A DNA stretch of 51,331 nucleotides. Source: Prorocentrum cordatum (Eukaryota). The stretch lies in the NCBI GenBank assembly GCA_963575745.1, contig CAUYUJ010000048.1, forward strand, positions 620,001 through 671,331, read 5' to 3'. Numbering within the stretch: the first letter of the stretch is position 1; each line of letters starts with the position of its first letter. The position numbers and the translations under genes are program-made. Below the pieces are notes generated by a model. The model was not told the DNA's origin. It saw nothing but the letters and a program-made list of their open reading frames with translations, and did not search any database. This document shows positions 1,615 through 51,331 of this stretch, piece by piece.

Positions 1615-13710
<12,096 letters not shown>

Positions 13711-23498: not shown

Positions 23499-23731
23499 CT
23501 GAGTCCGGCACGTCCTTCTACAGGAAGAATATACAAGAATAGTCAAAATATACTCAAAGTATTCAAAAATATGAGCATTCACAGAATATGCAAAACACAA
23601 AGTAGCAATACATATGGAACATTAGTCTGGGGACGATCTTTTTTTATATGTTCGTGCATGCGTTGAACATTTGTTCACTATTTTTTTTGTTCCGTCCAAC
23701 GTCTGCCTGTAGGGGGACATGCCCGACCTAA
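23499..23731 (+). mobile_element. MITE family A copy just upstream of Sec61 beta
   Basis: TIRs; flanks GCGCAACT/GCACAACT. Confidence 0.85.
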
Positions 23732-23891: not shown

Positions 23892-23962
23892 ATGACAGAG
23901 GGGGCGAGCTCTGGCGCAGCGCCCGCCGGCCGTCAGGCCGCCGGCACCGTGGGCGGCGCCAG
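23892..23962 (+). CDS. SEC61B: Sec61 beta exon 1
   Basis: ATG at 23892, MTEGASSGAAPAGRQAAGTVGGA+AG, GA donor at 23963; in frame with exon 2. Confidence 0.75.
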
Positions 23963-26900
23963 GACCCGGAGGAGCAAGAAGTCAGGATCACGATGCGCCC
24001 GAGGCGCTGAAGTGAGGACCATGTCGGGCTCAGGAGTGGGTCTGGTCCCCGGGCCCTCTTCCCCAGACCTTTGTCGGGGGCATGCTCGTGGCCGAGGCTC
24101 GCCGTGGCCAGAAGGGCCCCTGCGTGCTCTGTTCGACTTTCCGCCCGGCCGCACGATGACTGCACGCTTCAGGATTTCCTGGACGTCCCAGCTTTCCTAC
24201 TGATCCGCGCAGGCTCCAGAAACGAGGGCCGCCAGATGATGCGGAGCTCCTGGATCGGGGAGACGTACGGCTCGAGTCGCAGATACGCGGTCGCACGGAT
24301 ACTTTCCGCGCGGGGCATGCGCATAACAGCGCCGCGTCTCCGCGGGGTCGTTGCCCACGGATACGAGGCCGCGAGGCCGCGGATGCGGATACGTTTCTCG
24401 CCGCCCACGAGCCCCGTACGCCAGGCCAGCCCGAGTCCTCCAAACCCGAGGCCTGCCCGTCGGTCGAGGAAGGTATGTAGTCTTTACTCCCAGATCCCAA
24501 TCTACTTCAAGCGCCTTCCTGCTTCAAGAGGCGATCTTTTCCTGCTGTCTTCTGCTACAGTCTACAGGAGAACCTGAACCCAGTCTACCTCCGACGCCTT
24601 CCTGCTTCATGTTTCTACCCACTTCTCCCGACCGACCGGATCCGTCTTCCCGACTCGGCCACGCGCAGAGGGGGCAGGGGGAGGGGAGAAGGCTTCTCAG
24701 CAGCGCCCATGCTTCTTGGAAGGCGCGGGCCTCCTCGGGAGCTGTAAGGCCAGCGCCTTCTAAGGAGCAGCCTCCTCCTGAGAAGCCTCCATCCCCCCGC
24801 CCCACCACCTCCCCTGTGCGCGCCGCCAGCCGACCCTGGAGCGCAACCGGCGCAGCTCGCACGCACCACGGCGTCGCCCTCGGCCTCCAGAGGTCATGGG
24901 CTTTTTTTCCACCACCGCCACCACCATAGGTTGGAGAGGGGAAGGAGATGGAGGACGAGGAGGAGGAGGACGAGGAGGAGGAGGAGGAGGAGGAGGAGGA
25001 GGAAGACGAGGAGGAGGAGGAGGAGGAGGAGGAGGAGGAGGAGGAGGAGGACACCCTCCCCCTCCAACTTATGGTGGTGGTGGTGTAAAGCAGGCCCATC
25101 AAGAGGACCGCGCTGGCGCGCCGCACCGCGGGCAAGAGCACGGTCGGGACGAGCAGCGGCCGCAAGGCAGGCGGGTCGGCACAGAATTCGAGCAGCGGCC
25201 GAGTCCGAGCGTCGGGTCAGAGGAAGGGGGGGGCGGTATGGTTAGGTCGGGCCTGTCCCTCTACAAGGGGGAACATTCCAAAAAAGTCCAAAAATAGTCT
25301 GGGGACGATTTTTGTTTACCGGTCTTGATTCTGTTTGGGATAGTTCTTCTGGCATGTTGTATTTTTCGTCCAAAATCGGCCTGTAGGGGGACATGCCCGA
25401 CCTACGAATATGTGGGGCATCGGTCAAGGCTAAGGGATGTAGCCAGGACGCTCCACAGGGAGCCCGACAACGACAGAAGCGTGCAAACTCGGCGGCCCGC
25501 GTGGATTTCTCGGAGCGTCGCCGGAGCCCCCTGGCGGCGCCTCTGGCGCCGCCCCTGGCGCGCTCCACGCGCCAGGGAGGGGGGTCCAGCGCGGATTTGA
25601 GAAATCCGCGCGAACCGCTGATGTTTTGTTATGTTAATGTCGTTGCCTGTTCCCCTGAAGAGGCTTCAGGCCCTGGGCGACTGCTTGTCTGATGAAGGCG
25701 GTGGTGATGTCTATGGCTAGGCCTCGGTTCCAACGGCATCCAGACCCCGAATTTTTTGTCCAGTGGCCACCACCCGCCAAACACCCCAACCCAGCCCGAA
25801 GGCCCCAACTTGCCATCCGTTCACAATGGGGGGGGCGAACCCGTTTCCCCCCCAACCCGAATTTGGGGTCTTCGGGTTGGGTTGGGGTGGTCTGGTAGGT
25901 AATCTTAAGTCGGGCGCGTCCCTCTGCAGGCGGAGTATTCAAAAATAGTCCAAAAATAATCTGGGGACGACTTTCACTATTGTTTAACAACTTTTGAATA
26001 TTGTTTGATTGTTTTCTTCGTCCAAAATCCGCGTGTAGGAGGGTATGCCCGACCTAAAAGGAGTCAAGTGGCTCCTTGTCCAATGCCATCACTGCAGGGA
26101 CATGGGGGGCGTTCCAGCCTCGCCGCCGGGCACACTCATCGATACGTGGGACCCTCAGGCGCCAGGAGACGCCGGGGAAATCAGCTTCGTAAGCTGGTTC
26201 GTTAACTTGGGCGCCCGAGTTATCCGGTGTAACTCGGGCCCAAGGTAACTCGGATTTGGATTCCCGAAGAGCGAACCCGAGTTAGCCCTGACCCGAGTTA
26301 CCCCTGATGATTTGGGGCTCTGGACGCCCGAATTATCCGGGGTAACTCGGGCCCGAGGTAGCTCGGGCTCGGATTCCCGAAGAACGAACCCGAGTCAGCC
26401 CTGATCGACCTCAACATCGGCCACGCGCAGTGGAGGGGGCGGGGGAGGGGGGCCTCTTAGAAGGAGACTGCTTCTTAGAAGGCGCTGGCCCTACTTCTGT
26501 TGGCCGGCGCCTTCTAAGAAGCAGCCTCCTTCTAAGAAGCCTTCCGCCCTCCCCTTAACCCCCCTCTTCTCGCCTCCGGCGCCGCCCTTGGCGCGCTCCG
26601 AGCTTTAGTGAGGAGGGTCCAGCTCCGATCCAAGGAGTCTGCGCGGACCTCCGAGACATGATATGCATGCCGCTTTTTGTTCCTCGTCTCGTCCGACCCG
26701 AGGAGGGTCGCAGGCGATGTTTCTCCCACAGTCCTTAAGTTCCGCCCGAAAGGTTTGGCCGCTCAGAAAACGGCGGAAACCTTGGGATACACCCCAGGAT
26801 GGCTATTCGGACGCACCCCGATCGAGGATGGACACTCCCCCATCGTGTATCCCAGGGTTGGGCCCCTAAAGTCCAAACCCTTCGAAGACCTCCCAAAGCT

Positions 26901-29900
26901 TGGGATGGGGGTCGACAAACCCGCTTGTTAGGAAGGGTTAGAGGTTCGAGGTTTTCAATTCCCCGAGATTCTTCATAAGCGTCGGGGGGGGGCGTCACCC
27001 CCGCCGACAGCCCCACATCGACCCCCATCGCGGGCAGCCACCGCGCGCCGAAGGCGCCTCGACCCCCGTCGCAGCGCGACGACGAGGCGAGGTTGACCCC
27101 CGTCGGGGGGTACTCCCCCACGCTTATTAAGAAACCCAGAGTCATTTTCGGCGCGCAGGGGGGGGGGGGGAGGGAGAAGGGGGGGGGGGGCAGCCGTCCG
27201 TGCCGAGACGAGGCGCGGAGGGCCGCCCCCCCCCCCCCCCAGCTCCCTGCGCGCCTCGGGCGGGCCAGGCTTCTTTGGGCCAGGCGACGGATCGGGGGCA
27301 GCGTCGAGGGGGTGGCTCGGCTCGGGGGAGGGGTGCTACGCGCACAGAGGGTGGGCAGGGGGAATCAGGAGCGAAAGAAGGACGTACATGTACATGAATC
27401 CACGCTGGTTTCGAGAGCACGCATTGCACAAATGTTCGTATCACGCGGCCGGTCTCGCGAATCGAGGGGCCGTGTTCATGTACATAGTTGGGCGCGTACG
27501 TCCTTTGTGGGCTCCCTAGGGAAGGGGGAGGCTTCTTGGAAGCACACCTGCTTCTTAGCAGGCGCGAGCCTTGTCTATGGATGCAATGCCCGCGCCTTCC
27601 GAGAAGCAGCCTCCTTCTGAGAAGCCTTCCCCCATCCCCCATACCCCGTGCGCGCGCCGCCCAGGAGGGGGGCCTTGAGGTGTTCGGGCGCTTCCGAAGT
27701 TTCTCTCCGAGCGGCCTTGCAGCCTCGGGCTGCCCTCCAGCAGCTGCGCCTCGCCGAGAGCCCTCGTGGGGTGCCCCGAGTGTCCCGAGCGGCCGCCGGA
27801 GGCCCGAGTCGGTGACGGCCCCAAGGCCAGGCGGCAGCAAGGCCGGGTCGGACGAGACTTCGGGTTAAGTCGGGCGTGTCCCTCTAAAGGAGGAGTACTC
27901 AAAACAAAGTCCAGCAATAATCTGGGGACGGTGTTTGGCTTTTGTTGAGTATTGTTGGATATGTTTAGGGTTTGTTTTTAAATGTTCGCCCGAAATCCCC
28001 CTGTAGGAGGACAGACCTAAACTTCGGGGGTCGACGCTCGAGGTTTCGAGGTTCGGCATCGTCGCTTCGGATTCCCCAGAGCAGGCTCTGAAGGCTCCTT
28101 GTCGCCGCGGCTGGGCGCGGCTCGAGGAGCTGGCCAGGGCGGACCCCGGGGAGGGGTCGGGGGATCGATGTTGGACAGATTCCGTAGGCCTCACCGCTGG
28201 TGCCGCCGACCCTGGATGGGGACGACGATGACGACGACGTCGACGACAACGACCAAAACGACGACGGCGACGGCGGCGGCAGCGACAACGACGGGACGAC
28301 GGCGACGACGACGTCGTGGGCGGCGGCGGTGACGACGACGACGACGACGGCGCCGAAAAACATTCAAACGCTTACGGGTAAAACGTTGAATCTGTTGTGC
28401 TGGGGTTCTCTTGCGGTGCTCTTGTTGGGGTCGGGGGGTCGATCCGGGACAGACTTGGGCCGGGGCGAGCAGCGGCCCCCAAGGGCGCCGACGGCGGCAT
28501 CCTCAAGTTCTACACGGACGACTCGGCCGGCCTGAAGGTGCCCCGCTGGAAAACATCACGACGGACGGCTTCGAAAAACAAAACATTGCGTAAACATAAA
28601 CTGTCGGAGCTCCGCGCGGATTTCTCGGATTGGCGCTGGAGCCCCCCTGGCGGCGCCTCCGGCGACGCCCCTGGCGCGCTCCGCGCGCCATGAAGGGGGG
28701 TCCAGCGTCGAGCCAAGAAATCCGCGCGGACCTCCGAAAGTTCACGTGTACACCATCAGTTGTAACCCGATCTTCTCGGCGCAGGGGGGGAAAAAAAAAC
28801 GATGGACGCTTGTTTGGCAGTCTCCGGCTTCTGCGGACCCTCGCTGGCCCTGGGGACCGTCAGAAAAGGGCCCAGGGCGAGAGGCCGGCCCCTGGGAAGG
28901 GTCGAGGCCTCCGGGGGTCCATGTGACAAAACTACGCCGTTGGAGCTCTGGGGCTGCCAGGGACGGCGGCAGAAGCCACGGTGGGGGCGTTGGCCAAGGA
29001 ATGCGCCCAGGAGGCTTCAGACCCTGGAGGATTCCTTATCTGATGAGAGCGGCGGCGATATCCATGGCCAGGCCTCGATTGGAGTTCCACCGGTCTCCAG
29101 ACCCTGGGTTCCTTATCTAAGGTTAAGCTGGGCGTGTCCCCCTACAGGAGGACTGTGCAAAAATAATCACGCAACCCAAAAACACGTCTGGGGACGATGT
29201 CCTGGCCATATTTGCACATTTCTTCCATATGTGTTCGCCTGTTTTCTGTGTTTCTCCCCAAGATCCGCCTCTATAGGAGGCCTTGCCCGACAGACAGCTA
29301 CTCCGGTGTGCGGGGGGGCGGCGCGGGGCTCTCCTGGGCGGGCGCCAGCCCCCTCCGCCCGGGCGCGCGGCTCGCCGAGCGCGCCAGGAGGGGGGGGGGG
29401 GCCGTGCAGCGCCGACCCACGAAGTCCGCACGAGCCCCGGGAGCTTCTGCCTGTGCTGCGTCCTGCCGCTCCAGCCGCGGCGGCCGCAGCGGGTACGGAT
29501 TGGGCGTTGCGTAATGGGGGGGTCATAAATGGGGGGGCGGCGAGTGTGGTCCGAAAAGGTACCCAAACGGTACCTAAACGAGCCCCCTGGGGCTCTGGAG
29601 GGGCCCGAAAGGGGCACGAAAGGGGACCTTTTCTGACCCCCCCGTTTGTGACCCCCCCAGTAAGCCACGCCCAAACGGAGAGCTGTGGGCACACAGTGCC
29701 CATCAGCAGTTCTTGTTCATTTTGGACAGGGCTCGCTGCCCGCGCCGCCGCGGACGTGGTTCTTTGAAGACAGGAGGCCGCCTGCGCAACAGCGGCCGCT
29801 GTCGGTTTGGGGCAACATGTGCTGTTCGGCGTTGTACCCATGGTTTCCGTGCCCATTTCGGGCGTCCAAATCCAAGGCTGGGTTAAGACGGGCATGCCCC

Positions 29901-30338
29901 TCTACAGGAGGAGTATTCAAAAGTGGTCAGAAGGCAGTCAGGGGACGATATATCGACTCTTGTTGCCAATGTTTCTGGTATGTTTGACAATGCTGAATTT
30001 GCCCTCCAAGGTTTACGCAGTGGCGAAGCGTCCTGGCTCGCCTATAGGCCCACCACATAATGTTCTAAGAACTGTTTGTAGTTTGCACAAAAGGTTATCA
30101 GAACATTTCTGGCTGGGTCTGTCTTGTTTGATCACATCGGGCGAATGTTCTAAGAACATCGATTCTGTTCTGAGAACTCTTCGGGCTTCTGAGAGCATGC
30201 CGTGGTAGGCCCACAGGAATGCCGGGATGGTCGGTCCCTGCTCAAAAGGTGGGGCCCACCACGGTCTTGGTGCTGTCCCTGGTCTTCATGGCCATCGTCT
30301 GCTCCCTCCACATCCTGGGCAAGTTCCGCGGCAGCTGA
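23892..30338 (+). CDS. SEC61B: Protein transport protein Sec61 subunit beta, 4 exons (23892-23962, 25106-25166 [alternative in-frame acceptor 25094], 28484-28537, 30249-30338), ~91 aa
   Basis: The spliced translation is MTEGASSGAAPAGRQAAGTVGGAR|TALARRTAGKSTVGTSSGRK|GADGGILKFYTDDSAGLK|VGPTTVLVLSLVFMAIVCSLHILGKFRGS*. It has the Sec61beta signature (LKFYTDDS.GLKVGP..VLV.SL.F...V..LHI.GK) and a C-terminal TM helix. Donors are GA, GC, GT; all acceptors are AG|G; phases are consistent. Confidence 0.93.
25106..25166 (+). CDS. SEC61B: Sec61 beta exon 2
   Basis: G+TALARRTAGKSTVGTSSGRK; basic RR-containing segment typical of the Sec61beta N-region; GC donor at 25167; an upstream in-frame AG could add PIKR (start 25094). 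Confidence 0.75.
25242..25405 (+). mobile_element. MITE family A copy
   Basis: TIRs and the internal AAAATAGTCTGGGGACG motif. Confidence 0.82.
25905..26057 (+). mobile_element. MITE family A copy
   Basis: TIRs and internal motif. Confidence 0.82.
26205..26405. repeat. ~115-bp tandem duplication built from CCCGAGTTA/TAACTCGGG inverted motifs
   Basis: Two copies of CCCGAGTTATCCGG.GTAACTCGGGCCC.AGGTA.CTCGG...GGATTCCCGAAGA.CGAACCCGAGT. Confidence 0.75.
26430..26570. mobile_element. Hairpin element family E; other copies ~24670-24810, ~27520-27645
   Basis: CTTAGAAGGAGACTGCTTCTTAGAAGGCGCTGGCC is nearly the reverse complement of GGCCGGCGCCTTCTAAGAAGCAGCCTCCTTCTAAG. Confidence 0.7.
27865..28020 (+). 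mobile_element. MITE family A copy
   Basis: Perfect 8-bp TSD ACTTCGGG. Confidence 0.88.
28484..28537 (+). CDS. SEC61B: Sec61 beta exon 3
   Basis: GADGGILKFYTDDSAGLK; AG|G acceptor, GT donor at 28538. Confidence 0.92.
29123..29295 (+). mobile_element. MITE family A copy (diverged)
   Basis: Degenerate TIRs and internal CTGGGGACG. Confidence 0.75.
29500..29674. mobile_element. Single MITE with ~38-bp TIRs and 5-bp TSD
   Basis: TTGGGCGTTGCGTAATGGGGGGGTCA...TGACCCCCCCAGTAAGCCACGCCCAA, flanked on both sides by ACGGA. Confidence 0.8.
29883..30010 (+). mobile_element. MITE family A copy, 3' truncated next to a family D element
   Basis: Left TIR TTAAGACGGGCATGCCCCTCTACAGG; no right TIR. Confidence 0.7.
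30249..30338 (+). CDS. SEC61B: Sec61 beta exon 4 (TM helix and stop)
   Basis: VGPTTVLVLSLVFMAIVCSLHILGKFRGS then TGA at 30336-30338. Confidence 0.93.
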   Translation: MGPTTVLVLSLVFMAIVCSLHILGKFRGS

Positions 30339-30391
30339 GGGCGGCGCCCGGCAGCGCGTGAGCCGTTGGCGAGCCACGCGCGCCTCTTATG

Positions 30392-30550
30392 TTACGTCGG
30401 GCGTGTCCCTCTGCAGGAGGAAGATTCCAAAATAGCTCCAAAAATATGATGGGGACGATGTACTGACTAGTTCTTACTATATTGGATCTGTTGTGGGTGT
30501 CCAAGATGCTTCGTCCCGAATCCGCCTCTAGGAGGACATGCCCGACCTAA
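30392..30550 (+). mobile_element. MITE family A copy ~50 bp downstream of the Sec61 beta stop
   Basis: Both TIRs present. Confidence 0.82.
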
Positions 30551-39100: not shown

Positions 39101-41300
39101 AAGAGAAAGAGATCCTTACGCAAGGGAAGCATGGCCATCTTCTTTGATGTTCCCGCCCGGGGCCAAAAGGGAGCGGGTCCGTTTCCCACTCGGTTCTAGG
39201 AAGGCTCTCGTCAATGGCCACGCATATGTTCTCCTCCTGCTGGTTCAAACAAATCGGTCTAATATGTCTCCGCTCGCGCATGCTGCACCTGTGTCGCTTG
39301 CGGAATGAATCGAGTAAGGGAGAGCACTAGCTCTTCTGCCCGGATGCGTATCCAAGCGTAGTCTTGAGCGGCGGTGAGACACAGAAGCCATGGGCCCAAT
39401 AAGTCCCTAGAGAGTTGCGAATCGTCATCTTCAGGGCTGAAGAGGCAAGATGTGCAAGGTCCCCATCGCGGATACGCTGGGCCGTCACGAAGATATGTTA
39501 ACTTGCGGTTTGAAGCCCTGAGTGCGAACGAGGTACAAGTTGTTCCTAATATGCATGCGAATTCTGATGAGGGAGGGGAGAGAGAGAGAGGCAGAAATAT
39601 CAGGACGTCTCACCCTGACCTTGTCTCTCCCGAAACACCTCGCCGCTTCCTTGTTGATGGAATCCAGTGACTTGCGAAGCTGAGTATGCACGTTGCCCTC
39701 CCACGGTTCCAGCATGCAGCCTTCGCACGCACATTGAAAACCATGGATGCACCGTTCATCGGTTTTTTTCTCCCGGCCAAGGGAAACCGATCCAGATTCG
39801 ACCAGAGGTTTCCTGATTCCATTCTAGGAGACACAGGACAGGAAAATGATCCTCGTGATCGCGCAGAACCTCCATGCCATGAACCGCCGATGCGTGGCTA
39901 ATGGATGCAGCAAGTTCTCTGGCGAGCAGCGCGTAGTCTATCCTAGTGGGTCTTACTTGCTTTCGTCACCTACGGCGTTAAAAGTGCTGGCTGCGACCAC
40001 TGCTGTTCGAGAAGAGATTGATGCATGAGTTCGCCACTTGTGTCCTGGTCATCACAGCAACCTTCCTGTCCACCCGGGGTCGAGATAACGGGGCGAAGAG
40101 AAGCATTGGCATCCATAAGCACTACGTCGAGGGGCTACTTGTCGGCCAGGGCCCCAATCTCTTTCCAAAATTAGACTCGCCTGCAAGGGGTGCCGTCGGT
40201 GAGGCGCGTGAGCTACAGAGATATTGCAATTAAGGCCAGGAGCGCTGCGCCTCAGAATGAGTGGCCAAGGTGAGGCGAACAGCACAACGAAATGCTTCAC
40301 CTGAAAGAACTTGTCTTTGCCAATGATCCTGCCGCACTGGACCATCAGGTCCACCTAAAACTCAGTCCCTAAAATATAATATCCGTATCCCGAATAAAAA
40401 AAACATGAAATGAACTTTTCTGGAGGCCAACCAGGGCAGTCAGTGTCCATATCATGGAACCGCTTTGACAACACTCAGCCTGCGAAAGCGCGTGCTACCG
40501 CGGATTCCCCTATTGTGCTCTACGCGGGCCGACTGAAGATTGCAGGTTGCAACTGTAATATACACTAAACATTGATCTGAATAGTGGGCGGCTGCTCGTT
40601 CAGCAACGCAGCATCTTCTGGCGTAACATGAAAGTCGGGCATGCATGCATCCTTCGAGAGCAGCAGTGCTATTTCTTAGGATGAAACTGGGTTGCGCATA
40701 CGCATCAGAGCCTTGCAACATGAGCCACTCCCACTGCTGACTGCGCTGAACACTTACCGCACTGAAAAGCTGATGACAGGGAGGCCGAGGGGAGCCAAGC
40801 TTTTTGGGCGCCGTGGCCTTGGCCACATTGTCCGCAAGGACATTCCACGTGTGGCCCACATGGGCCTCGATGTGCCCGTGGTCCACTTGGACCTGTGTGC
40901 GCACGAACCTGAAAACCATTAACAGATACATGGTAAGCTTCTCAACACATCCAGGAACAACACCCTCCTTGGCAGCACCTAGTGCGAGAAGAGAGTCGGT
41001 AGAAACATTGACCCTACATCTAGGCGTGTACCCTACAAGCCAACAGAGCGAGCACACCAGAGCCAGGCATTCCGTCGCGGTGCTCGTGGCTTCCAGAGGC
41101 CCGATGCCCATGGCATTCGTGCTGGCAACGTCTCCCCCGAGAACCCCCTGAAAGGACTGACCTCTGTCACCATGCCCCACGACCACCACTGCCCGTGCCC
41201 CCTTCCCCTCCCCCTGAGCACCACAGGGAGCCGTCAGTGAACAGATGGGGAGGCCGTGGAACTGTGGAACGGCCCGGCCCGCATCGGGCAGGTGTCCAGG
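36150..41300 (-). mobile_element. Decayed LINE-like non-LTR retrotransposon (RNase H - APE endonuclease - RT)
   Basis: All on the minus strand. RNase H: LFTDGS (~41240), TECLAL, STDSLLAL, HIEAHVGHTWNVLADNVAK. APE: ITVATCN (~40550), LVGLQKS, LMDANA, TRIDYAL (~39930), HEDHFPV (~39845). RT: AQCGGVPGRS, SIDLKAAF, KGTRM, AFVDEFA, GFRLN, KCLG. Stops and frameshifts throughout. Confidence 0.85.
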
Positions 41301-42099
41301 CCGAGCTTGGCCTCGGGCCAGAACAGACCTGTGTCCTCGAGCTGCTCCTCCTCCTCCTCCTCCTCATCCTCCTCCTCCTCCTCCTCCTCCTCCTCCTCCT
41401 CCATATCCTCCTCCTCCTCCTCCTCCTCCTCCTCCTCCTTTTCCTCCTCCTCCTCCTCCTCCTCCTCCTCCTCCTCCTCCTCCTCCTCCTCCTCTGCGAG
41501 AGGCTCAAGGTGCTGGGGAGACGCCTCTCGCAGAATCTCCGCGAGCGGGCCGGCAGAAGGCAACGCGCACCGTGCCATGAATTTGCCTGCGTTGCGCCGA
41601 TCTAACGAGGTGCGGTCCGAGTGAGATCCGAGGCCCCATGGGTTCAAGGTTTCGCAGCCAGTGTTGAGGACAGCCGGTTGCGTCTGGCAGGCCTTAGGCA
41701 TAACCTCTTTTGATGTCGGAGGAGAGTCAGCATGCATAGCACGTGTATTCGGGGCTCCAGGGTTCGGCTCTGTCGCCTCTTCGCCTGCTATGCCTCCAGA
41801 GCTGCACGGTTCTTCCCCATGCTTTAATTTGGGTATTGGCAGTTGCGGGTGTGGGGTGTGACGATCCTTTGTCGTTGCCCCTGCTGCTGCAAAATTTGCG
41901 TCGGCTGCGCTGCGCATCCGCCTGCGACTGCGAATTCTCTGTCTCTGCCGAGGCACGGAACGTGACAAAATAGCCGGATGTGTTCGATGATAAACAAGAT
42001 TGCGTCGCTCAAGACGACGATTTGGGGCGGCAGTTGAGATAATTTCTGCACTCGGACACAAATGCTTGGCGGTGAAAGGAGAGGGGAGGGGGAGGCCCT

Positions 42100-46516: not shown

Positions 46517-49500
46517 TGAGGGCGTCTGCACGCGACCTTGCGTCTGCGCGCGACCCTGCGCGAAGCCGGTGTTGCTTGCGTCGCTCATGCGCTGTCTCGA
46601 GCGCACCCAGCCTCCAAGCAGATGGAGGAGAGAGGGGGCGGGATGCCTTTCTCGCTCGGGGCGGGCCCAGCCCCGAGCGACGAGGCCCCCGGGGGGGGGG
46701 GCAAGGAGAGGACGGCGGTGCCAGGCCCGAGCAGCCCGAGCCAGCGGCCTCGAGGAGGGGAGCGGAAGCAGCGGACGACGATCTTCGGTCCTGCCCAGGT
46801 CCCTGGGCGCCCAGCGGTCTGCGGAGGGCTCCTGCGCACGGAGACACCTGGAGGCCGACGAGCGAAGCCGGTTCGCAAGCGCACGGAGGGTATCGAGCAG
46901 GGCGGGGTTGTCGGGTAAAGGCCCAGGGCCGCTCTGCAAAGGCCCACTGAGGGTCGGGGCGGTTTTTCCTCATTTGCCTTGAGCAAGTCGGGCACGTCCC
47001 TGTACGTTCTGGGTACGATTTGGGGACTCTTTCTGTGTATCGTTGCTTCTTTTTGGACTATCTTTTATTTGTCGTCCAAAATCCGCCTGTAGGGGGACAA
47101 GCTCGACCGAACACTATGAGGGTCGGGGTGGTTTTGACTCACTTGACTCGATCCTCCTAATCCTCCCAGGAGGGATGAGCTGGACACGGAACAGTCTGGG
47201 GGCAAGAGGAGAGGTTTGGACGGGGCCAGGAGGAGGATAATTCCGCTCCCGAGCGCTCCGGACCGCTCTGACAAGGCCGCGGAGCCCGAGACATTTTCCA
47301 GAGCCGCTGGATTCCAGAGATTGGCGATTTATCCTCACCCGATGTTATCCTCCTCGTGGCTTCGTGTCAGAGGGACGTCGTACGCGCCCAGGTGGGGCTG
47401 CCGGCACCAGCGGCTCCAGCGAGGCTGCAGCCCCGGCGCCCGCGCCGCAGCCAGAGGGGCCGGGACCGTCGGCGGTCCCTGCAACCCGCCTGGGCAGCAT
47501 GCCCGTGGCAGAGGACCCATCGGCGGCGGCGGCGATGCCAACCAGACCACGCCCTAACCCTACACCAAGCACCCGAACCCCAAACGCCCTAAGCAGACAC
47601 CCGACACCCTTGCCCTCACCCCCGAACCCCGACACCTCAGACCTCACACCCAAATCCTAACCCTCTAACCCTAACACCCCAAGCCTAAGTTAACCATAAC
47701 ACCCTGACACTAACTCCCGAACCCGAACACCGTATCTCAACAGTGACACCCTAATCCTAGTACCCCCACGCCCTAGCAATGGCCCGGATTCTAACACAAC
47801 AAACTACAATTATAATTCCATGATGTTCTCAGATTCTAGAGCTGCTGCACCAGAAAACTCTAAGACCATAACCCCATGGGACCCGAATGCCCCGAATCCC
47901 CAAACGTGTATAACAATATAGCCGTATTGCAATACATCCCCATTGCAGTAAATATACCATACCTAAAATCCTATAAGCGCAATGTCCTCGTTCATTAACA
48001 CCCCGAGACACTAAAGCCACAAAATCATAGGACCCCAAGCTCCTAAGGTCAGAATGCCTTAGGACGATCCCGCCCGCAGTTGAATCAAATCCAGGAAAAC
48101 GCAACACGCATCAGACCCCAAGGTTCTGAGCTCGCCCCAGGCGGCCATGACCAGGCAACCTCTTCGGCGACGGCTCTGAGCCTACGTGAAGCTCAGCGGA
48201 TGGCTCAGACGAAATTGCACGAACCACCGACCAAAAACGAAAACGTTCACAATGTGTTCATGCGTTCAACGAGAAATCTTCGGCCGGCCGCCCAGGAGCC
48301 TGGCGCGGAGGAGCCTGGCGAGCTCAGCTTCGAGGACATGGCTTGGGAGCCGCTGCCCCAGGACCACCACTTCGTGCATTCGCCGCCGCACCCGGCGGGG
48401 CCCTCGTGCCGGCAGTTCATGAGGCCCACCTCGGGCGGGGAACAGTTCGCCACAGATGGTGCCGTTCGAGCTTCGAATCTTCGGGCGTTCGCGTCGGCTC
48501 TCGACGGTCTTCCAGCACTGGGACGCTCTCCGGCGGCTGCGTCTCGCCAGCGGCGTTTTGGGGGTGCCCGGTTGATCCCGACCGGCCGTGGGAGGGCCAA
48601 GGAATGGCGCGAAAACCAGCGCAGGCCTAAGGGGACCAGGAAATCTCCTCCTCCTCCTCCTCCTCCTCCTCCTCCTCCTCCTCCTCCTCCTGCTCCTCCT
48701 ACCCTCCCCTCTCCTCCTCCCACCTCCTTCCTCCTCCTCTCCTCCTCCTCCTCCTCCTCCTCCTCCTCCTCCTCCTCCTCCTCCTCCTCCTCCTCCTCCT
48801 CCTCCTCCTCCTCCTCCTCCTCCTCCTCCTCCTCCTCCTCCTCCTCTCTCCTCCCTCCTCCCTCCTCCCTCCCTCCTCCTCCCTCCTCCCTCCTCCCTCC
48901 TCCCTCCTCCTCCTCCTCCTCCTCCACCTCCTCCTCCCTCCTCCTCCTCCTCCTCCTCTCCTCCTGGTCCTCCTCCTCCTCCTCCCTCCTCCTCCTGGTC
49001 CTCCCTGGTTCTCCTCCTCCCCCTCCCACTCCTCCTCCTCCTCCTCCTCCTCCTCCTCCTCCTCCTCCTCCTCCTCCTCCTCCTCCTCCTCCTCCCTCCT
49101 CCCTCCCCTCCCTCCCCTCCTCCTCCCACCTCTTTCTCCTCCTCCCCCCTCCTCCTCCTCCCTCCTCCTCCCTCCCCCCTCCTCCTCCTCCTCCCCCTCC
49201 CCTTCCTCCTCCTCCTCCTCCTCCTCCTCCTCCTCCTCCTCCTCCATCCTCCTCCTCCTCCTCCTCCTCAGGTCCTCCGTCTCCTCCTCCTCCCTCCTCC
49301 TCTCCTCCTCCTCCTCCTCCTCCCTCCTCCTACCCTCCTTCCTCCTCCTCCCACCTCCTTCCTCCTCCTCCGTCCTCCTACCTCCTCCCTCCTCCTCCTC
49401 ATCCTCATCCTCCTCCTTCTCCTCCTCCTCCTCCTCCTCCTCCTCCTCCTCCTCATCATCATCATCATCCTCCTCCTAGTCCTCCTCCCAGTGGCCTCTC

Positions 49501-51279
49501 GTCGCCACGGCCAGCTCAGCCGCGCAAATCTCGCGAGGGTCGGCCCCGCAGGGGCGCGGGCTCGGATGCCTGAGGCGAGCGGGCCCCAAGGGAGACTGAT
49601 CCCGAAGGCCGTGGGCCGCTCCCGCTCTCCAGGGGCCCTCCCTGGGCCCTTGGCCTTCCCCATAATACCAGGAGGGGAAAGAACACACAGACACAATGAA
49701 TCGCCGATATCCCAAGAAAATACGGGAAACTATGGGAAGTGGGGGGGAAGACAAACATCCAAAACATACTGAAAAATATGGGTCGACTGGCGGCGACCCC
49801 GCCGCCAGCGTTCAACGTTGATCGCCGCCAGCGACCCTGAATCGGTCGATGTTGAACGATCGGACGTTTCGGAAAGGGCCGATCGTTCAAGGTTGAACGA
49901 TCCGCGCTGTGTCAGGAACCAACGCCAGGGTCGACACACGACACGGACCTGCCGTAGGCAGCCCGAGGCGTTTTCTGATGGTCCCCTGGCAGGGCCCGCT
50001 TCCCTCGAGACCCGTCCAGCTTCCTGCCACAGCAGGCCCACATCCCCAGCATCGCAGTCCGGACTCCTCGGCCGCGAACCCTTGGGCGCAGGGCGATTTT
50101 GCGCGGAGGTCCCGTGCGGGCTTTATCCGTGGAATCGCGTACCCATCGATATGGGTGTGTATGTTTGTCGCTCGTTATGATGTGTATGTTTGGCCCCCGT
50201 AACTACGGGCCCGGAACGGCTGGCGTCAGCGTGGATCGGCGGTTTGGTCTGGGCCCCGAGTTGACATGGGGCCCAGCGCTGGTAGCGCGTCTGTTCTGCA
50301 ACCCAGCATCCGAGACGAGTTCAGGTATGGGCACGTGGTGCTAAGACTCGAATCGATATGAAGAAAGTTGCTTGATTGCGGTTTGCGCGAAGTGGGGGCT
50401 GGGACTGAGTGAAGAGCGCATTAGAAACGCAGTACTCAGCACTACGGCTCGTAGAACCACAGTTTCGCAGATTCCGAAGGCGCGTGCAGCGCGAGTGGGA
50501 GATCCTGCGAAGAGGCTTGCCTCGCAGCATCTGGGTGCACGTGTACCCGGACCGCACGGAGTTGTTGCGAGCTTGTCTGATTGGTCCCGAAGGCATTGCT
50601 CAGGGGAGGAAGGCTGGCCCCCCCCACACACTACAGTCGGGGCAGTCGGGGCCCTGAAGAAGGAACCCGTTTCGTTGGGGAGGGGCTCCGCGTTCCTTAA
50701 GTGTTTCACAGCTTGCCTCAGGCTTTCCTTATGTTTCCGACCGGAAATCGAAGGTTAACTTATGGAACAAAGGGGCCTCGTTCCTTATTTAGGGTTCCTT
50801 AGGTCAACGCCCCGACTGTCATGCGGAAGCCGTACCGAGCCCCTCCACCTGGTGACAGGCTCGGTACGGTCTCTGTGGTGGGATTTAACTGCGGTGTGGC
50901 CATGCCTCCTCTCCGAGGCACTCCATACTCCGACGCGCTGTTTTTCTTCGACGTCCACTTGCCCGCGGCCTACCCGCAGGTTCCACCACAGGTGAAGTTC
51001 TGGTCTTTCGGCGAGAACCTAAACCCGAATCTCTACGAGAATGGCAAGGTGTGCCTCAGCCTCCTCGGCACGTGGACAGGCAGGGACTCGGAAACGTGGA
51101 GCCCCGAGAGGAGCAACCTCCTGCAGGTCTTGGTCTCCATCTTGGGCTTGGTGTTGAACACGGAGCCGTACTACAACGAGCCCGGCTTCGAGCGCGAGCG
51201 CGACACTCCGCAGGGCGACCTCCGCTCGCAGCGCTACAACGAGTCCGTGGCGCTGTCGAGCTACCACCTCATGTTATCG
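46517..51279 (+). CDS. E2 ubiquitin-conjugating enzyme, UBE2O/UBE2Z/plant UBC23-24-like, 3' partial; exons ?-46798, 47392-47513, 48296-48423, 50480-50592, 50918-51279
   Basis: The splice gives ...PQDHHFVHSPP...CRQFMR|RVQREWEILRRGLPRSIWVHVYPDRTELLRACLIGPEG|TPYSDALFFFDVHLPAAYPQVPPQVKFWSFGENLNPNLYENGKVCLSLLGTWTG...NLLQVLVSILGLVLNTEPYYNEPGFE. This is a UBCc domain with catalytic Cys (TGC 51052-51054) in the NPNLYENGKVCLSLL motif typical of this subfamily. The start codon is uncertain (46517, or 46622 if the G homopolymer at ~46691 is miscalled). Confidence 0.88.
46983..47111 (+). mobile_element. MITE family A copy (short) in an E2 intron
   Basis: AAGTCGGGCACGTCCC ... TCGTCCAAAATCCGCCTGTAGGGGGACA. 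Confidence 0.78.
47392..47513 (+). CDS. E2 gene, low-complexity N-terminal exon
   Basis: GAAGTSGSSEAAAPAPAPQPEGPGPSAVPATRLGSMPVAE; phase 1 in and phase 0 out, consistent with the flanking exons; GA donor. Confidence 0.6.
47550..48070 (+). repeat. Degenerate telomere-like (CCCTAA/CCCTAAA) interstitial tract followed by degenerate ~8-mer repeats
   Basis: CCCTAACCCTAC, CCTAACCCTCTAACCCTAAC, CCCGAAC variants. Confidence 0.55.
48296..48423 (+). CDS. E2 gene exon with the DHHF motif preceding the UBC core
   Basis: EPGAEEPGELSFEDMAWEPLPQDHHFVHSPPHPAGPSCRQFM+AG; GC donor at 48424. Confidence 0.8.
48644..49480 (+). repeat. (CCT)n microsatellite. Other CCT tracts: 2305-2447, 3770-3908, 7053-7085, 12235-12600, 35760-35965, 41345-41492, 45095-45430. 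(GAG)n tracts: 8322-8510, 11861-12010, 24950-25050, 43307-43470, 51285-end
   Basis: Direct reading of the sequence. Confidence 0.97.
50480..50592 (+). CDS. E2 gene exon, UBC helix 1 and strands
   Basis: RVQREWEILRRGLPRSIWVHVYPDRTELLRACLIGPE+G; GC donor at 50593. Confidence 0.9.
50918..51279 (+). CDS. E2 gene exon with catalytic cysteine
   Basis: GTPYSDALFFFD...NPNLYENGKVCLSLLGTW...EPYYNEPGFE...YNESVALSSYHLMLS; probable GT donor at 51280 followed by a GAG tract. Confidence 0.92.
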
Positions 51280-51331
51280 GTCCGGAGGGAGGAGGAGGAG
51301 GGAGGAGGGAGGAGGGAGGAGGGAGGAGAGA

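What the first reader, a model, noticed from the sequence alone, without database searches (positions are those of the whole stretch)
25146..28483. Intron 3' ends 'echo' the end of the upstream exon (clearest in Sec61 beta intron 2)
Seen: Sec61beta exon 2 ends GGGACGAGCAGCGGCCGCAAG (25146-25166), and the 3.3-kb intron after it ends GGGGCGAGCAGCGGCCCCCAAG (28462-28483). Sec61beta homology fixes exon 3 and its acceptor; the exon 2 donor rests on reading frame. Other junctions show shorter or looser versions: Sec61beta intron 1 AG|GACC at both ends; intron 3 AAG|GTG at both; E2 GACGATCTTCGGTCCTGCCCAG|GT vs GACGTCGTACGCGCCCAG|GT; GCAGTTCATGAG|GC vs GCAGATTCCGAAG|GC; CCGAAG|GCA vs CCGAG|GCA. Known: dinoflagellate introners leave short direct repeats at junctions. 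Inference: ~20-nt echoes are longer than usual TSDs. They suggest intron birth by local exon duplication or staggered-break repair around an AG|G proto-site, or a retained role in pairing splice sites where polypyrimidine tracts are absent.
Basis: partly seen in the sequence, partly recalled or inferred. Interest (0 to 1): 0.75.

Follow-up and report, generated by a model that had tools for sequence, protein, structure and literature searches.

The report
Long exon-end copy at intron end
In a dinoflagellate Sec61-beta gene the last ~26 bases of one exon are repeated at the end of the following 3.3-kb intron, an unusually long case of a boundary repeat already described in dinoflagellates and most likely a scar of the DNA insertion or repair event that shaped this intron.

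Summary
The main observation is real. Sec61beta exon 2 ends at 25142-25166, and 23 of 27 aligned columns recur at 28458-28483, the last bases of intron 2. Chance does not explain it: 0 of 100,000 simulated pairs and 0 of 12,000 non-cognate AG|G site pairs reach the score.

The exon 2/exon 3 junction is supported by codon usage and by nine dinoflagellate Sec61beta proteins. No RNA reads could be laid.

The general phenomenon is already published as the 'identical repeated intron boundary' of dinoflagellates, 2-11 bp (PMC5032977), and as introner target-site duplications of 3-8 nt. The other five supported introns here show only that short form: exact repeats of 6, 6, 4, 4 and 5 nt against a null mean of 3.78 (P about 0.02).

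What is new is the length, plus a patchwork of other short local copies at both ends of intron 2. Best reading: a scar of an insertion or staggered-break repair at an AAG|G site, whose downstream copy supplies the acceptor. A splice-site pairing role is not supported.

The organism is Prorocentrum cordatum. Earlier notes of this scan reported transposon-derived, repeat-flanked introns elsewhere in this genome. Interest is modest.

The parts
23892..23962 (+). Sec61beta exon 1 (ATG to donor CAG|GA)
   Evidence: The four-exon model gives a 276-nt CDS of 91 aa. It aligns globally to 9 dinoflagellate Sec61beta proteins.
23963..25105 (+). Sec61beta intron 1, GA donor, exact boundary repeat AG|GACC (6 nt)
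   Evidence: A third AGGACC lies at 24015, 54 nt downstream of the donor.
25106..25166 (+). Sec61beta exon 2 (TALARRTAGKSTVGTSSGRK)
   Evidence: Translation. All 20 of 20 codons end in G/C. Homologs read ...SGRK then A/G-G-G-ILKFY.
25142..25167 (+). Echo copy A: last 25 nt of exon 2 plus the first intron base
25167..28483 (+). Sec61beta intron 2, 3317 nt, GC donor (AAG|GC), acceptor CAAG|G
   Evidence: 1243 of its 3317 nt are copies of repeats found elsewhere in the window. The ends 25167-25234 and 28018-28483 are unique in the window. Many palindromic MITE-like units lie inside.
25170..25201 (+). Copy B: compressed direct copy of 28433-28478 near the intron 5' end; includes an exact 13-mer of copy A at 25189-25201
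   Evidence: for the core. The part upstream of the core (25170-25188 vs 28433-28456) scores 9 against a null of 5.7 +/- 1.0, P = 0.008. MAFFT alignment A1.
28153..28179 (+). Upstream copy of a second isolated 27-nt direct repeat inside intron 2
   Evidence: Family D17, 23 of 27 identical. Only 2 matches in the window. No similarity beyond its ends.
28427..28453 (+). Downstream copy of that repeat, ending 4 nt before echo copy C
28458..28484 (+). Echo copy C: last 26 nt of intron 2 plus the first base of exon 3; supplies the acceptor CAAG|G
28484..28537 (+). Sec61beta exon 3 (GADGGILKFYTDDSAGLK)
   Evidence: Pfam Sec61_beta E = 0.002 on the enclosing ORF. Homologs. 18 of 18 codons end in G/C.
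28538..30248 (+). Sec61beta intron 3, GT donor, exact boundary repeat AAG|GTG (6 nt)
30249..30338 (+). Sec61beta exon 4 with stop codon (VGPTTVLVLSLVFMAIVCSLHILGKFRGS*)
   Evidence: 32 Sec61beta hits with this exon.
47514..48295 (+). E2 (UBE2O-like) intron, GA donor, boundary repeat AG|GA (4 nt)
   Evidence: Mapping of annotated protein P0001.
48424..50479 (+).
   Evidence: P0001 reads ...CRQFM|RRVQREW across it.
50593..50917 (+).
   Evidence: P0001 reads ...IGPEG|TPYSD across it.

Best explanation
The echo is a scar in the DNA, not a signal. At some time the Sec61beta coding sequence read straight through ...GGTCGGGACGAGCAGCGGCCGCAAG|GGCGCCGAC... (…GTSSGRK GADGG…). DNA was inserted at this AAG|G site during repair of a staggered break, or by another insertion process that fills in a long overhang. 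About 26 nt of the target ended up on both sides of the insert.

The upstream copy stayed coding, as the end of exon 2. The downstream copy became the last 26 nt of the new intron, and its ...CAAG|G serves as the acceptor. The donor G|C is the last G of the upstream copy plus the first base of the insert. Splicing therefore restores the original message.

Further short templated copies (copy B at the 5' end, the 27-nt repeat 4 nt before the echo) came from the same or later rounds of break repair. MITE insertions then inflated the intron to 3.3 kb.

Shown: the repeat, its significance, its exact placement at both junctions, the patchwork of other copies, and the protein-level junction. Inferred: that the event created the intron rather than reshaping an older one, and the kind of repair. 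I put about 0.8 on the umbrella claim (a duplication scar of insertion or repair, with no function of its own). The 0.5 below is for the intron-birth version.
For: 1. The repeat is far beyond chance.

2. Similarity stops sharply at the junction. The anchored score is 18 upstream against 5 downstream, or 15 against 2 with AG|G masked. This is what a target duplication flanking an insert predicts.

3. The geometry equals one already described for dinoflagellate introners. [quoted passage not shown]

4. Copy C, read without its one extra base, is an in-frame G/C-ending copy of coding sequence abutting exon 3 (reading).

5. The gene model holds:
- Exons 2-4 have 67 of 67 G/C-ending codons, against 17 of 24 in the in-frame read-through after 25166 (Fisher P = 4e-5).
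- The 91-aa product aligns end to end with 9 of 9 chosen dinoflagellate Sec61beta proteins, with 59-72 identities in 86-91 columns.
- 4 of the 9 have no gap between residues 36 and 54, and the others have gaps of 1-2 residues.

6. Both intron ends are patchworks of short local copies. Daphnia neointrons made by staggered breaks show the same pair of marks. [quoted passage not shown] Significant internal direct repeats occur in 55 of 90 new introns against 100 of 617 old ones (PMC4202315, passages).
Against: - No RNA reads could be laid, so the junction is shown only at protein and codon level.
- No protein in the searched collection carries the exon-3 peptide, so expression of this copy is unproven.
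- Whether the intron is absent from paralogs or relatives could not be tested, so birth and later remodelling cannot be told apart.
- 26 nt is longer than any boundary repeat in the papers I read: 2-11 bp, 3-8 nt and 4-12 bp.
- The insert shows no transposon ends (no terminal inverted repeat among the 25 longest of 39 pairs). By my reading there is no poly(A) next to the repeat.
- The intron's first three codons read A-G-G, as in the homologs after ...GRK. That hints that the intron start may also derive from coding sequence, which a pure insertion does not predict.
- The window shows no general excess of isolated direct repeats: 12 direct against 14 inverted pairs of 16 nt or more.
Confidence: 0.5

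Rival explanations
1. Later remodelling of an older intron. A break near the intron 2/exon 3 border was repaired by template switching. About 27 nt were copied from 274 nt upstream. Synthesis then switched at a microhomology (GGACAGA / GGCAAGA) to the end of exon 2, perhaps on a spliced transcript or cDNA. That would explain why the copy runs straight into exon 3. The copied AAG|G replaced the old acceptor.
For: The last 58 nt of the intron consist wholly of pieces with copies elsewhere: 28427-28453 and 28458-28484. The two overlap in a shared GG.ACAGA motif in the MAFFT alignment. Copy C plus exon 3 has the arrangement of a spliced message. Recycling of cDNA in dinoflagellates is known (recalled: Slamovits and Keeling 2008, named only in an earlier scan note).
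Against: It needs the repair to restore the exon 3 start to the base. If the cDNA were longer, intron 3 should be lost, yet it is present. There is no direct evidence that the intron is old.
Confidence: 0.22
2. Tandem duplication of an exon segment spanning AAG|G (model of Rogers 1989, recalled). The same site serves as donor in copy 1 and as acceptor in copy 2. The proto-intron was about 40-60 nt and was later inflated by insertions.
For: Exon end equals intron end. A permissive alignment runs collinearly across the junction, 25129-25205 vs 28445-28524. Copy B lies 39 nt after copy A, in frame. The intron start reads A-G-G as in homologs.
Against: The second prediction fails. Intron start against exon 3 start is not significant (anchored P = 0.07; local P = 0.26, 0.81, 0.10 under three scorings). 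Identity is about 85% upstream of the junction and about 62% with five gaps downstream. TRF finds no tandem array at 25080-25260.
Confidence: 0.08
3. The repeat is kept by selection because it helps splicing, for example by bringing or marking the two splice sites in a genome without polypyrimidine tracts.
For: Boundary repeats are widespread in dinoflagellates (PMC5032977). The repeat sits exactly at both splice sites.
Against: Direct repeats cannot pair with each other. Predicted duplexes between intron ends are no stronger than shuffles. Only 1 of 6 supported introns here has a long repeat. The intronic copy carries a frameshifting extra base and 3 substitutions, as expected for neutral decay.
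Confidence: 0.04
4. The gene model or the locus is misleading: a silent paralog or pseudogene, a different donor or acceptor, or an assembly artefact. The repeat would then not lie at true splice junctions.
For: No RNA evidence was obtained. No protein in the searched collection holds the exon-3 peptide, while a paralog on another contig is annotated. In-frame alternative donors exist after 25202 and 25235 (reading).
Against: The 91-aa ORF is intact and matches homologs across the junction. Codons are 67 of 67 G/C-ending in exons against 17 of 24 beyond the donor. The only AG within four codons upstream of exon 3 is the proposed acceptor.
Confidence: 0.05
5. Chance similarity in GC-rich low-complexity DNA.
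For: The region is GC-rich. The first null built from all AGG sites had a heavy tail.
Against: 0 of 100,000 and 3 of 100,000 in Markov simulations. 0 of 12,000 non-cognate pairs once periodic flanks are removed. The exact 12-mer occurs 3 times against 0.03 expected.
Confidence: 0.01

Closest known systems
Identical repeated intron boundary (IRIB) of dinoflagellates (J Eukaryot Microbiol 2015, PMC5032977; abstract and passages read)
   Same: The last bases of an exon match the 3' end of the next intron. The repeat contains AG|G, the splice sites sit at the same place in each copy, and the repeat remains once in the mRNA. It was reported for every dinoflagellate then examined. The short echoes of the finding (4-6 nt here) are this.
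   Different: The published length is 2-9 bp (2-11 bp in that paper's discussion) and the copies are identical. Intron 2 has about 26 nt at 85% identity, and its exact part is only CAAG|G.
Introner-like elements of Symbiodinium and Polarella glacialis with target-site duplications (bioRxiv 10.1101/2020.10.14.339549; passages read; published version in Curr Biol 2023 not read)
   Same: One or both splice sites are recruited from the duplicated target. In class 12 the acceptor comes from a TSD ending in AGG, and the donor is the TSD's last G plus the element's first C, exactly as here. Intron 1 (GACC...AG|GACC) fits the 4-nt GHNN pattern.
   Different: Those TSDs are 3-8 nt and the introns belong to multi-copy families with defined ends. 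Intron 2 has a duplication of about 26 nt, ends that are unique in this window and no terminal inverted repeat.
New introns of Daphnia pulex made by repair of staggered double-strand breaks (Genome Biol Evol 2014, PMC4202315; passages read)
   Same: [quoted passage not shown] Additional internal direct repeats are common in young introns.
   Different: Those repeats are 4-12 bp and the introns are young, short and polymorphic. Here the repeat is about 26 nt, the intron is 3.3 kb and full of MITEs, and its age is unknown.
Non-canonical introner elements of Amoebophrya (BMC Biol 2021, PMC7789003; passages read)
   Same: Direct repeats overlap the exon/intron boundaries in a dinoflagellate relative.
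   Different: Those have 3-5 nt direct repeats together with 8-20 nt inverted repeats that pair the intron ends, and often lack GT-AG. Intron 2 has a GC-AG boundary and no end-to-end pairing above shuffles.

Membership tests
IRIB (dinoflagellate identical repeated intron boundary) | The 3' end of the exon is repeated at the 3' end of the next intron | tested here: met
   for intron 2 and for the five other supported introns.
IRIB (dinoflagellate identical repeated intron boundary) | The repeat holds AG|G, with the splice site at the same place in both copies | tested here: met
   All 6 of 6 supported introns have AG|G at donor and acceptor.
IRIB (dinoflagellate identical repeated intron boundary) | The repeat is present once in the mRNA | tested here: inconclusive
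   No RNA could be laid. At protein level the homologs show the repeat's peptide once.
IRIB (dinoflagellate identical repeated intron boundary) | Identical copies of 2-11 bp | tested here: not met
   Intron 2 has about 26 nt with 3 mismatches and 1 gap. Its exact part, CAAG|G (5 nt), does fall in the range.
Introner-like element insertion | Short TSD of a length typical for the class (3-8 nt) | tested here: not met
   The duplication is about 26 nt.
Introner-like element insertion | The intron is a member of a multi-copy sequence family with defined ends | tested here: inconclusive
   Only this window could be searched. The intron ends are unique in it and the interior is a mosaic of several repeat families. 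No whole genome is held.
Introner-like element insertion | Terminal inverted repeats | tested here: not met
   None of the 25 longest of 39 inverted pairs joins the two intron ends.
Introner-like element insertion | Splice sites recruited from the TSD and the element boundary | tested here: met
   The acceptor lies inside copy C. The donor is the last G of copy A plus the first base of the insert.
Staggered-break neointron (Daphnia type) | [quoted passage not shown] | tested here: met
Staggered-break neointron (Daphnia type) | Significant internal direct repeats | tested here: met
   Copy B and the 27-nt pair 28153/28427.
Staggered-break neointron (Daphnia type) | Recent gain: intron absent in relatives or polymorphic | not testable with these tools
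   No DNA of paralogs or other dinoflagellates was reachable. The metagenome scan returned only green-alga-like loci.
Tandem exon-segment duplication | The intron start copies the start of the next exon | tested here: not met
   Anchored P = 0.07. Local P = 0.26, 0.81 and 0.10.

The most novel reading that the evidence does not exclude
Prorocentrum cordatum makes or rebuilds introns by a route that is not introner transposition. Break repair would duplicate about 25-30 nt of the target or copy it from the spliced transcript. The short boundary repeats seen in all dinoflagellates would then be, at least in part, decayed remains of such long duplications. Two nested isolated repeats of 26 and 27 nt at about 85% identity in one intron would be two products of that process.
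Probability: 0.12. Interest if true: 0.6.

Novelty: new variant of a known kind. Interest (0 to 1): 0.3.

Why it matters
How new introns arise is still argued, and dinoflagellates are among the most intron-rich eukaryotes. Their known route is transposon-like introners with 3-8 nt target duplications. A clean 26-nt exon-end copy at an intron end, with further templated copies beside it, would be a candidate for a second route: break repair, as in Daphnia. It would also give a concrete locus for testing that route against paralogs and sister species. As one case in one window it does not change the picture. The general 'echo' is already in print.

Tried and rejected
RNA evidence:
- The look-up of sequencing runs listed 6 runs, each holding 5-8% of the sampled words, with no RNA holder listed.
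- Read laying gave nothing.

Own genome: none is held.

Protein search with the exon-3 ORF: no candidate of 56-181 aa.

Metagenome scan with a degenerate exon-3 pattern: 28 loci, all GC 0.45-0.54 with a green-alga-like Sec61beta. They have no intron at our intron 2 or 3 sites and none is a dinoflagellate.

Pfam on 288 ORFs of 95 aa or more gave weak or single hits only: Sec61_beta E = 0.002, UQ_con 1.5e-18, RNase_H 0.0021. The rest were low-complexity matches below cut-off.

Annotation-free searches for echo-like pairs:
- The seed-12 list was swamped by low complexity.
- The AGG-site scan at 15 of 20 or more gave 159 pairs, 63 of them 'isolated'. Most are MITE copies, and AGG ranks no higher than other trinucleotides.
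- After masking 26% of the window, there were 12 direct against 14 inverted isolated pairs of 16 nt or more.
- None of these shows a general long-echo phenomenon.

Other negative results:
- TRF found no array at the donor, and only (GAC)n and an 11-mer near the acceptor.
- Rfam gave only hairpin-like hits far below gathering scores. No tRNAs were found.
- There is no similarity beyond the ends of the 27-nt pair.
- The earlier-findings index had nothing for this place or sequence.

Rejected readings: chance; splice-site pairing; a longer exon 2. The first non-cognate null was discarded as contaminated by (GGA)n.

Full report
**What the window is.** The DNA is GC-rich (0.45-0.75 per kb) and eukaryotic. 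A 120-aa exon of the E2 gene at its right end is 100% identical to an NCBI protein named 'unnamed protein product, partial [Prorocentrum cordatum]' (P0001). The window therefore comes from that dinoflagellate, as earlier notes of this scan had said. No whole genome is held for it.

**The observation.**
- Gapped alignment extends the match to 25142-25166 vs 28458-28483, with 23 identities in 27 columns.
- It is not chance. A local score of 17 was reached by 0 of 100,000 simulated pairs and by 3 of 100,000 simulated intron ends against the real exon end.
- With AG|G masked, the junction-anchored score of 15 was reached by 0 of 12,000 non-cognate AGG-site pairs.
- The exact 12-mer core occurs three times in the window against 0.03 expected.
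- A first null from all AGG sites was spoiled by (GGA)n repeats and is discarded.

**Is the gene model right?** I could obtain no RNA evidence. The run search listed no RNA holder, and my single read-laying run was lost to a filter.
- Codon usage: all 67 of 67 codons of exons 2-4 end in G or C. The in-frame read-through after 25166 starts with GCA and has only 17 of 24 such codons (Fisher P = 4e-5).
- Homology: the four exons give a 276-nt CDS of 91 aa. It aligns end to end with nine dinoflagellate Sec61beta proteins of 90-94 aa, from MMETSP transcriptomes and from annotated Prorocentrum, Symbiodinium and Effrenium genomes. Identities are 59-72 in 86-91 columns. Around junction residue 44, four have no gap and the others have gaps of 1-2 residues.
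- The homologs read ...SGRK followed by A/G-G-G-ILKFY, and this gene reads ...SSGRK|GADGGILKFY.
- No protein in the searched collection carries the exon-3 peptide of this copy, whereas a paralog on another contig is annotated in three copies. Expression of this copy is therefore unproven.

**The other echoes.** The annotated E2 protein P0001 maps to four exons and fixes three introns: 47514-48295, 48424-50479 and 50593-50917.
- For the five supported introns other than Sec61beta intron 2, the exact boundary repeats are AG|GACC, AAG|GTG, AG|GA, AG|GC and AG|GCA. That is 6, 6, 4, 4 and 5 nt, mean 5.0, against 3.78 for non-cognate AGG sites (P = 0.02).
- With AG|G masked, none stands out singly.
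- There is therefore a mild excess of one to three bases beyond the consensus, and nothing like 20 nt.

**What is already known.**
- The short echo is in print. A 2015 paper on Crypthecodinium describes the 'identical repeated intron boundary'. The last 2-9 bp of each exon exactly match the 3' end of the next intron (2-11 bp in that paper's discussion). The repeat is found once in the cDNA, and it occurs in all dinoflagellates with data (PMC5032977).
- Introner-like elements of Symbiodinium and Polarella leave 3-8 nt target duplications from which splice sites are recruited (bioRxiv 10.1101/2020.10.14.339549).
- For P. cordatum the genome paper gives donors as GT 24.7%, GC 51.4% and GA 23.8%. 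It gives AGG acceptors as 79.7% and mean intron length as 4709 bp (PMC10666404).
- A 3.3-kb GC-AG intron is therefore ordinary there. What is unusual here is the length of the repeat.

**Anatomy of intron 2.**
- Of its 3317 nt, 1243 are copies of repeats seen elsewhere in the window, mostly palindromic MITE-like units. Its two ends (25167-25234 and 28018-28483) are unique in the window.
- Similarity between the two junction regions stops at the junction. It is strong upstream and insignificant downstream.
- The last 58 nt of the intron are a patchwork. 28427-28453 copies 28153-28179 (23 of 27 identical, an isolated pair). Four bases follow, and then the copy of the exon end.
- The first 35 nt of the intron hold a compressed copy of 28433-28478. 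It consists of the exact 12/13-mer core plus an upstream part with P = 0.008.
- No terminal inverted repeat joins the ends. There is no tandem array at the donor. No RNA family, tRNA or retroelement domain lies inside.

**Mechanism.**
- A target duplication flanking inserted DNA explains the sharp boundary and the exact placement. It also explains why splicing restores the message.
- The geometry equals class 12 of the published introners. There the acceptor comes from a duplication ending in AGG, and the donor is its last G plus the first C of the insert.
- The length, the unique ends and the accompanying templated copies fit repair of a staggered break better than a known transposon.
- Daphnia neointrons made that way show the same two marks: an exon-terminal repeat at the far end of the intron (4-12 bp) and an excess of internal direct repeats (PMC4202315).
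- I cannot tell whether the event created the intron or reshaped the 3' end of an older one. Copy C running straight into exon 3 would also fit repair templated by a spliced transcript.
- Simple tandem duplication is disfavoured because its second prediction fails.
- A pairing function is not supported.

**Generality.** Three annotation-free scans of the window found no excess of isolated long direct repeats. With six supported introns, the window cannot say how common long echoes are genome-wide.

**Verdict.** This is a real, statistically solid and unusually long member of a known class of dinoflagellate intron-boundary repeats. It is most likely a neutral scar of insertion or break repair. 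The general claim is already known, and the pairing idea is unsupported. Interest is modest until paralogs, sister species or a genome-wide count are examined.

Noticed in passing
23600-23731, 25235-25416, 25898-26057, 27858-28025, 29116-29295, 29876-30050, 30385-30550: One MITE-like family of about 160-180 nt, with terminal inverted repeats (TAGGTCGGGC...GCCCGACCTA type), occurs at least seven times in and around the Sec61beta gene. Further copies lie at about 3.4, 9.6 and 17.1 kb.
   Followed up: partly
24649-24835, 26430-26563, 27519-27664; 25489-25621, 26560-26654, 28604-28737: Two more palindromic repeat families lie in the Sec61beta introns. They give sub-threshold 'miRNA precursor' hits in Rfam, simply because they are hairpins.
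   Followed up: partly
24900-25085: The 3' part of intron 1 is a palindromic unit (CCACCACC...GGTGGTGG arms) around a long (GAG)n microsatellite. It ends about 20 nt before the acceptor.
   Followed up: no
24015-24020: A third AGGACC lies 54 nt (in frame) downstream of the intron 1 donor. This mirrors copy B of intron 2, which lies 39 nt (in frame) after copy A. Both could be alternative in-frame donors or further repair copies.
   Followed up: no
23892-30338: This Sec61beta copy seems unannotated. No protein in the searched collection holds its exon-3 peptide. A paralog with 72 of 88 identical residues is annotated in three neighbouring copies on another contig. Two of those models (P0153, P0154) deviate after ...HIL or ...GLK, which hints at an extra intron or mis-modelling there.
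   Followed up: partly
47382-51331: The E2 gene is UBE2O-like but apparently truncated. Homologs of 962-965 aa align to the window only from the ...SFEDMAWE... region onward. Their roughly 700 N-terminal residues find nothing upstream in the window. A 253-aa P. cordatum paralog (P0020) starts at the same point.
   Followed up: partly
40455-41363 (-): An ORF gives a weak RNase H match (E = 0.0021, below the Pfam cut-off). It may be a retroelement remnant.
   Followed up: no
4900-6350 and 10015-10550: There is a low-GC satellite-like stretch of CATACCATAACA-type units with strong AT skew, and a long (TGTA)n/(TG)n microsatellite block.
   Followed up: no
26572-26591 vs 28479-28498: A 20-nt stretch inside a MITE in intron 2 is 85% complementary to the sequence spanning the intron 2 acceptor (pair I15). 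This is probably chance in GC-rich DNA.
   Followed up: no
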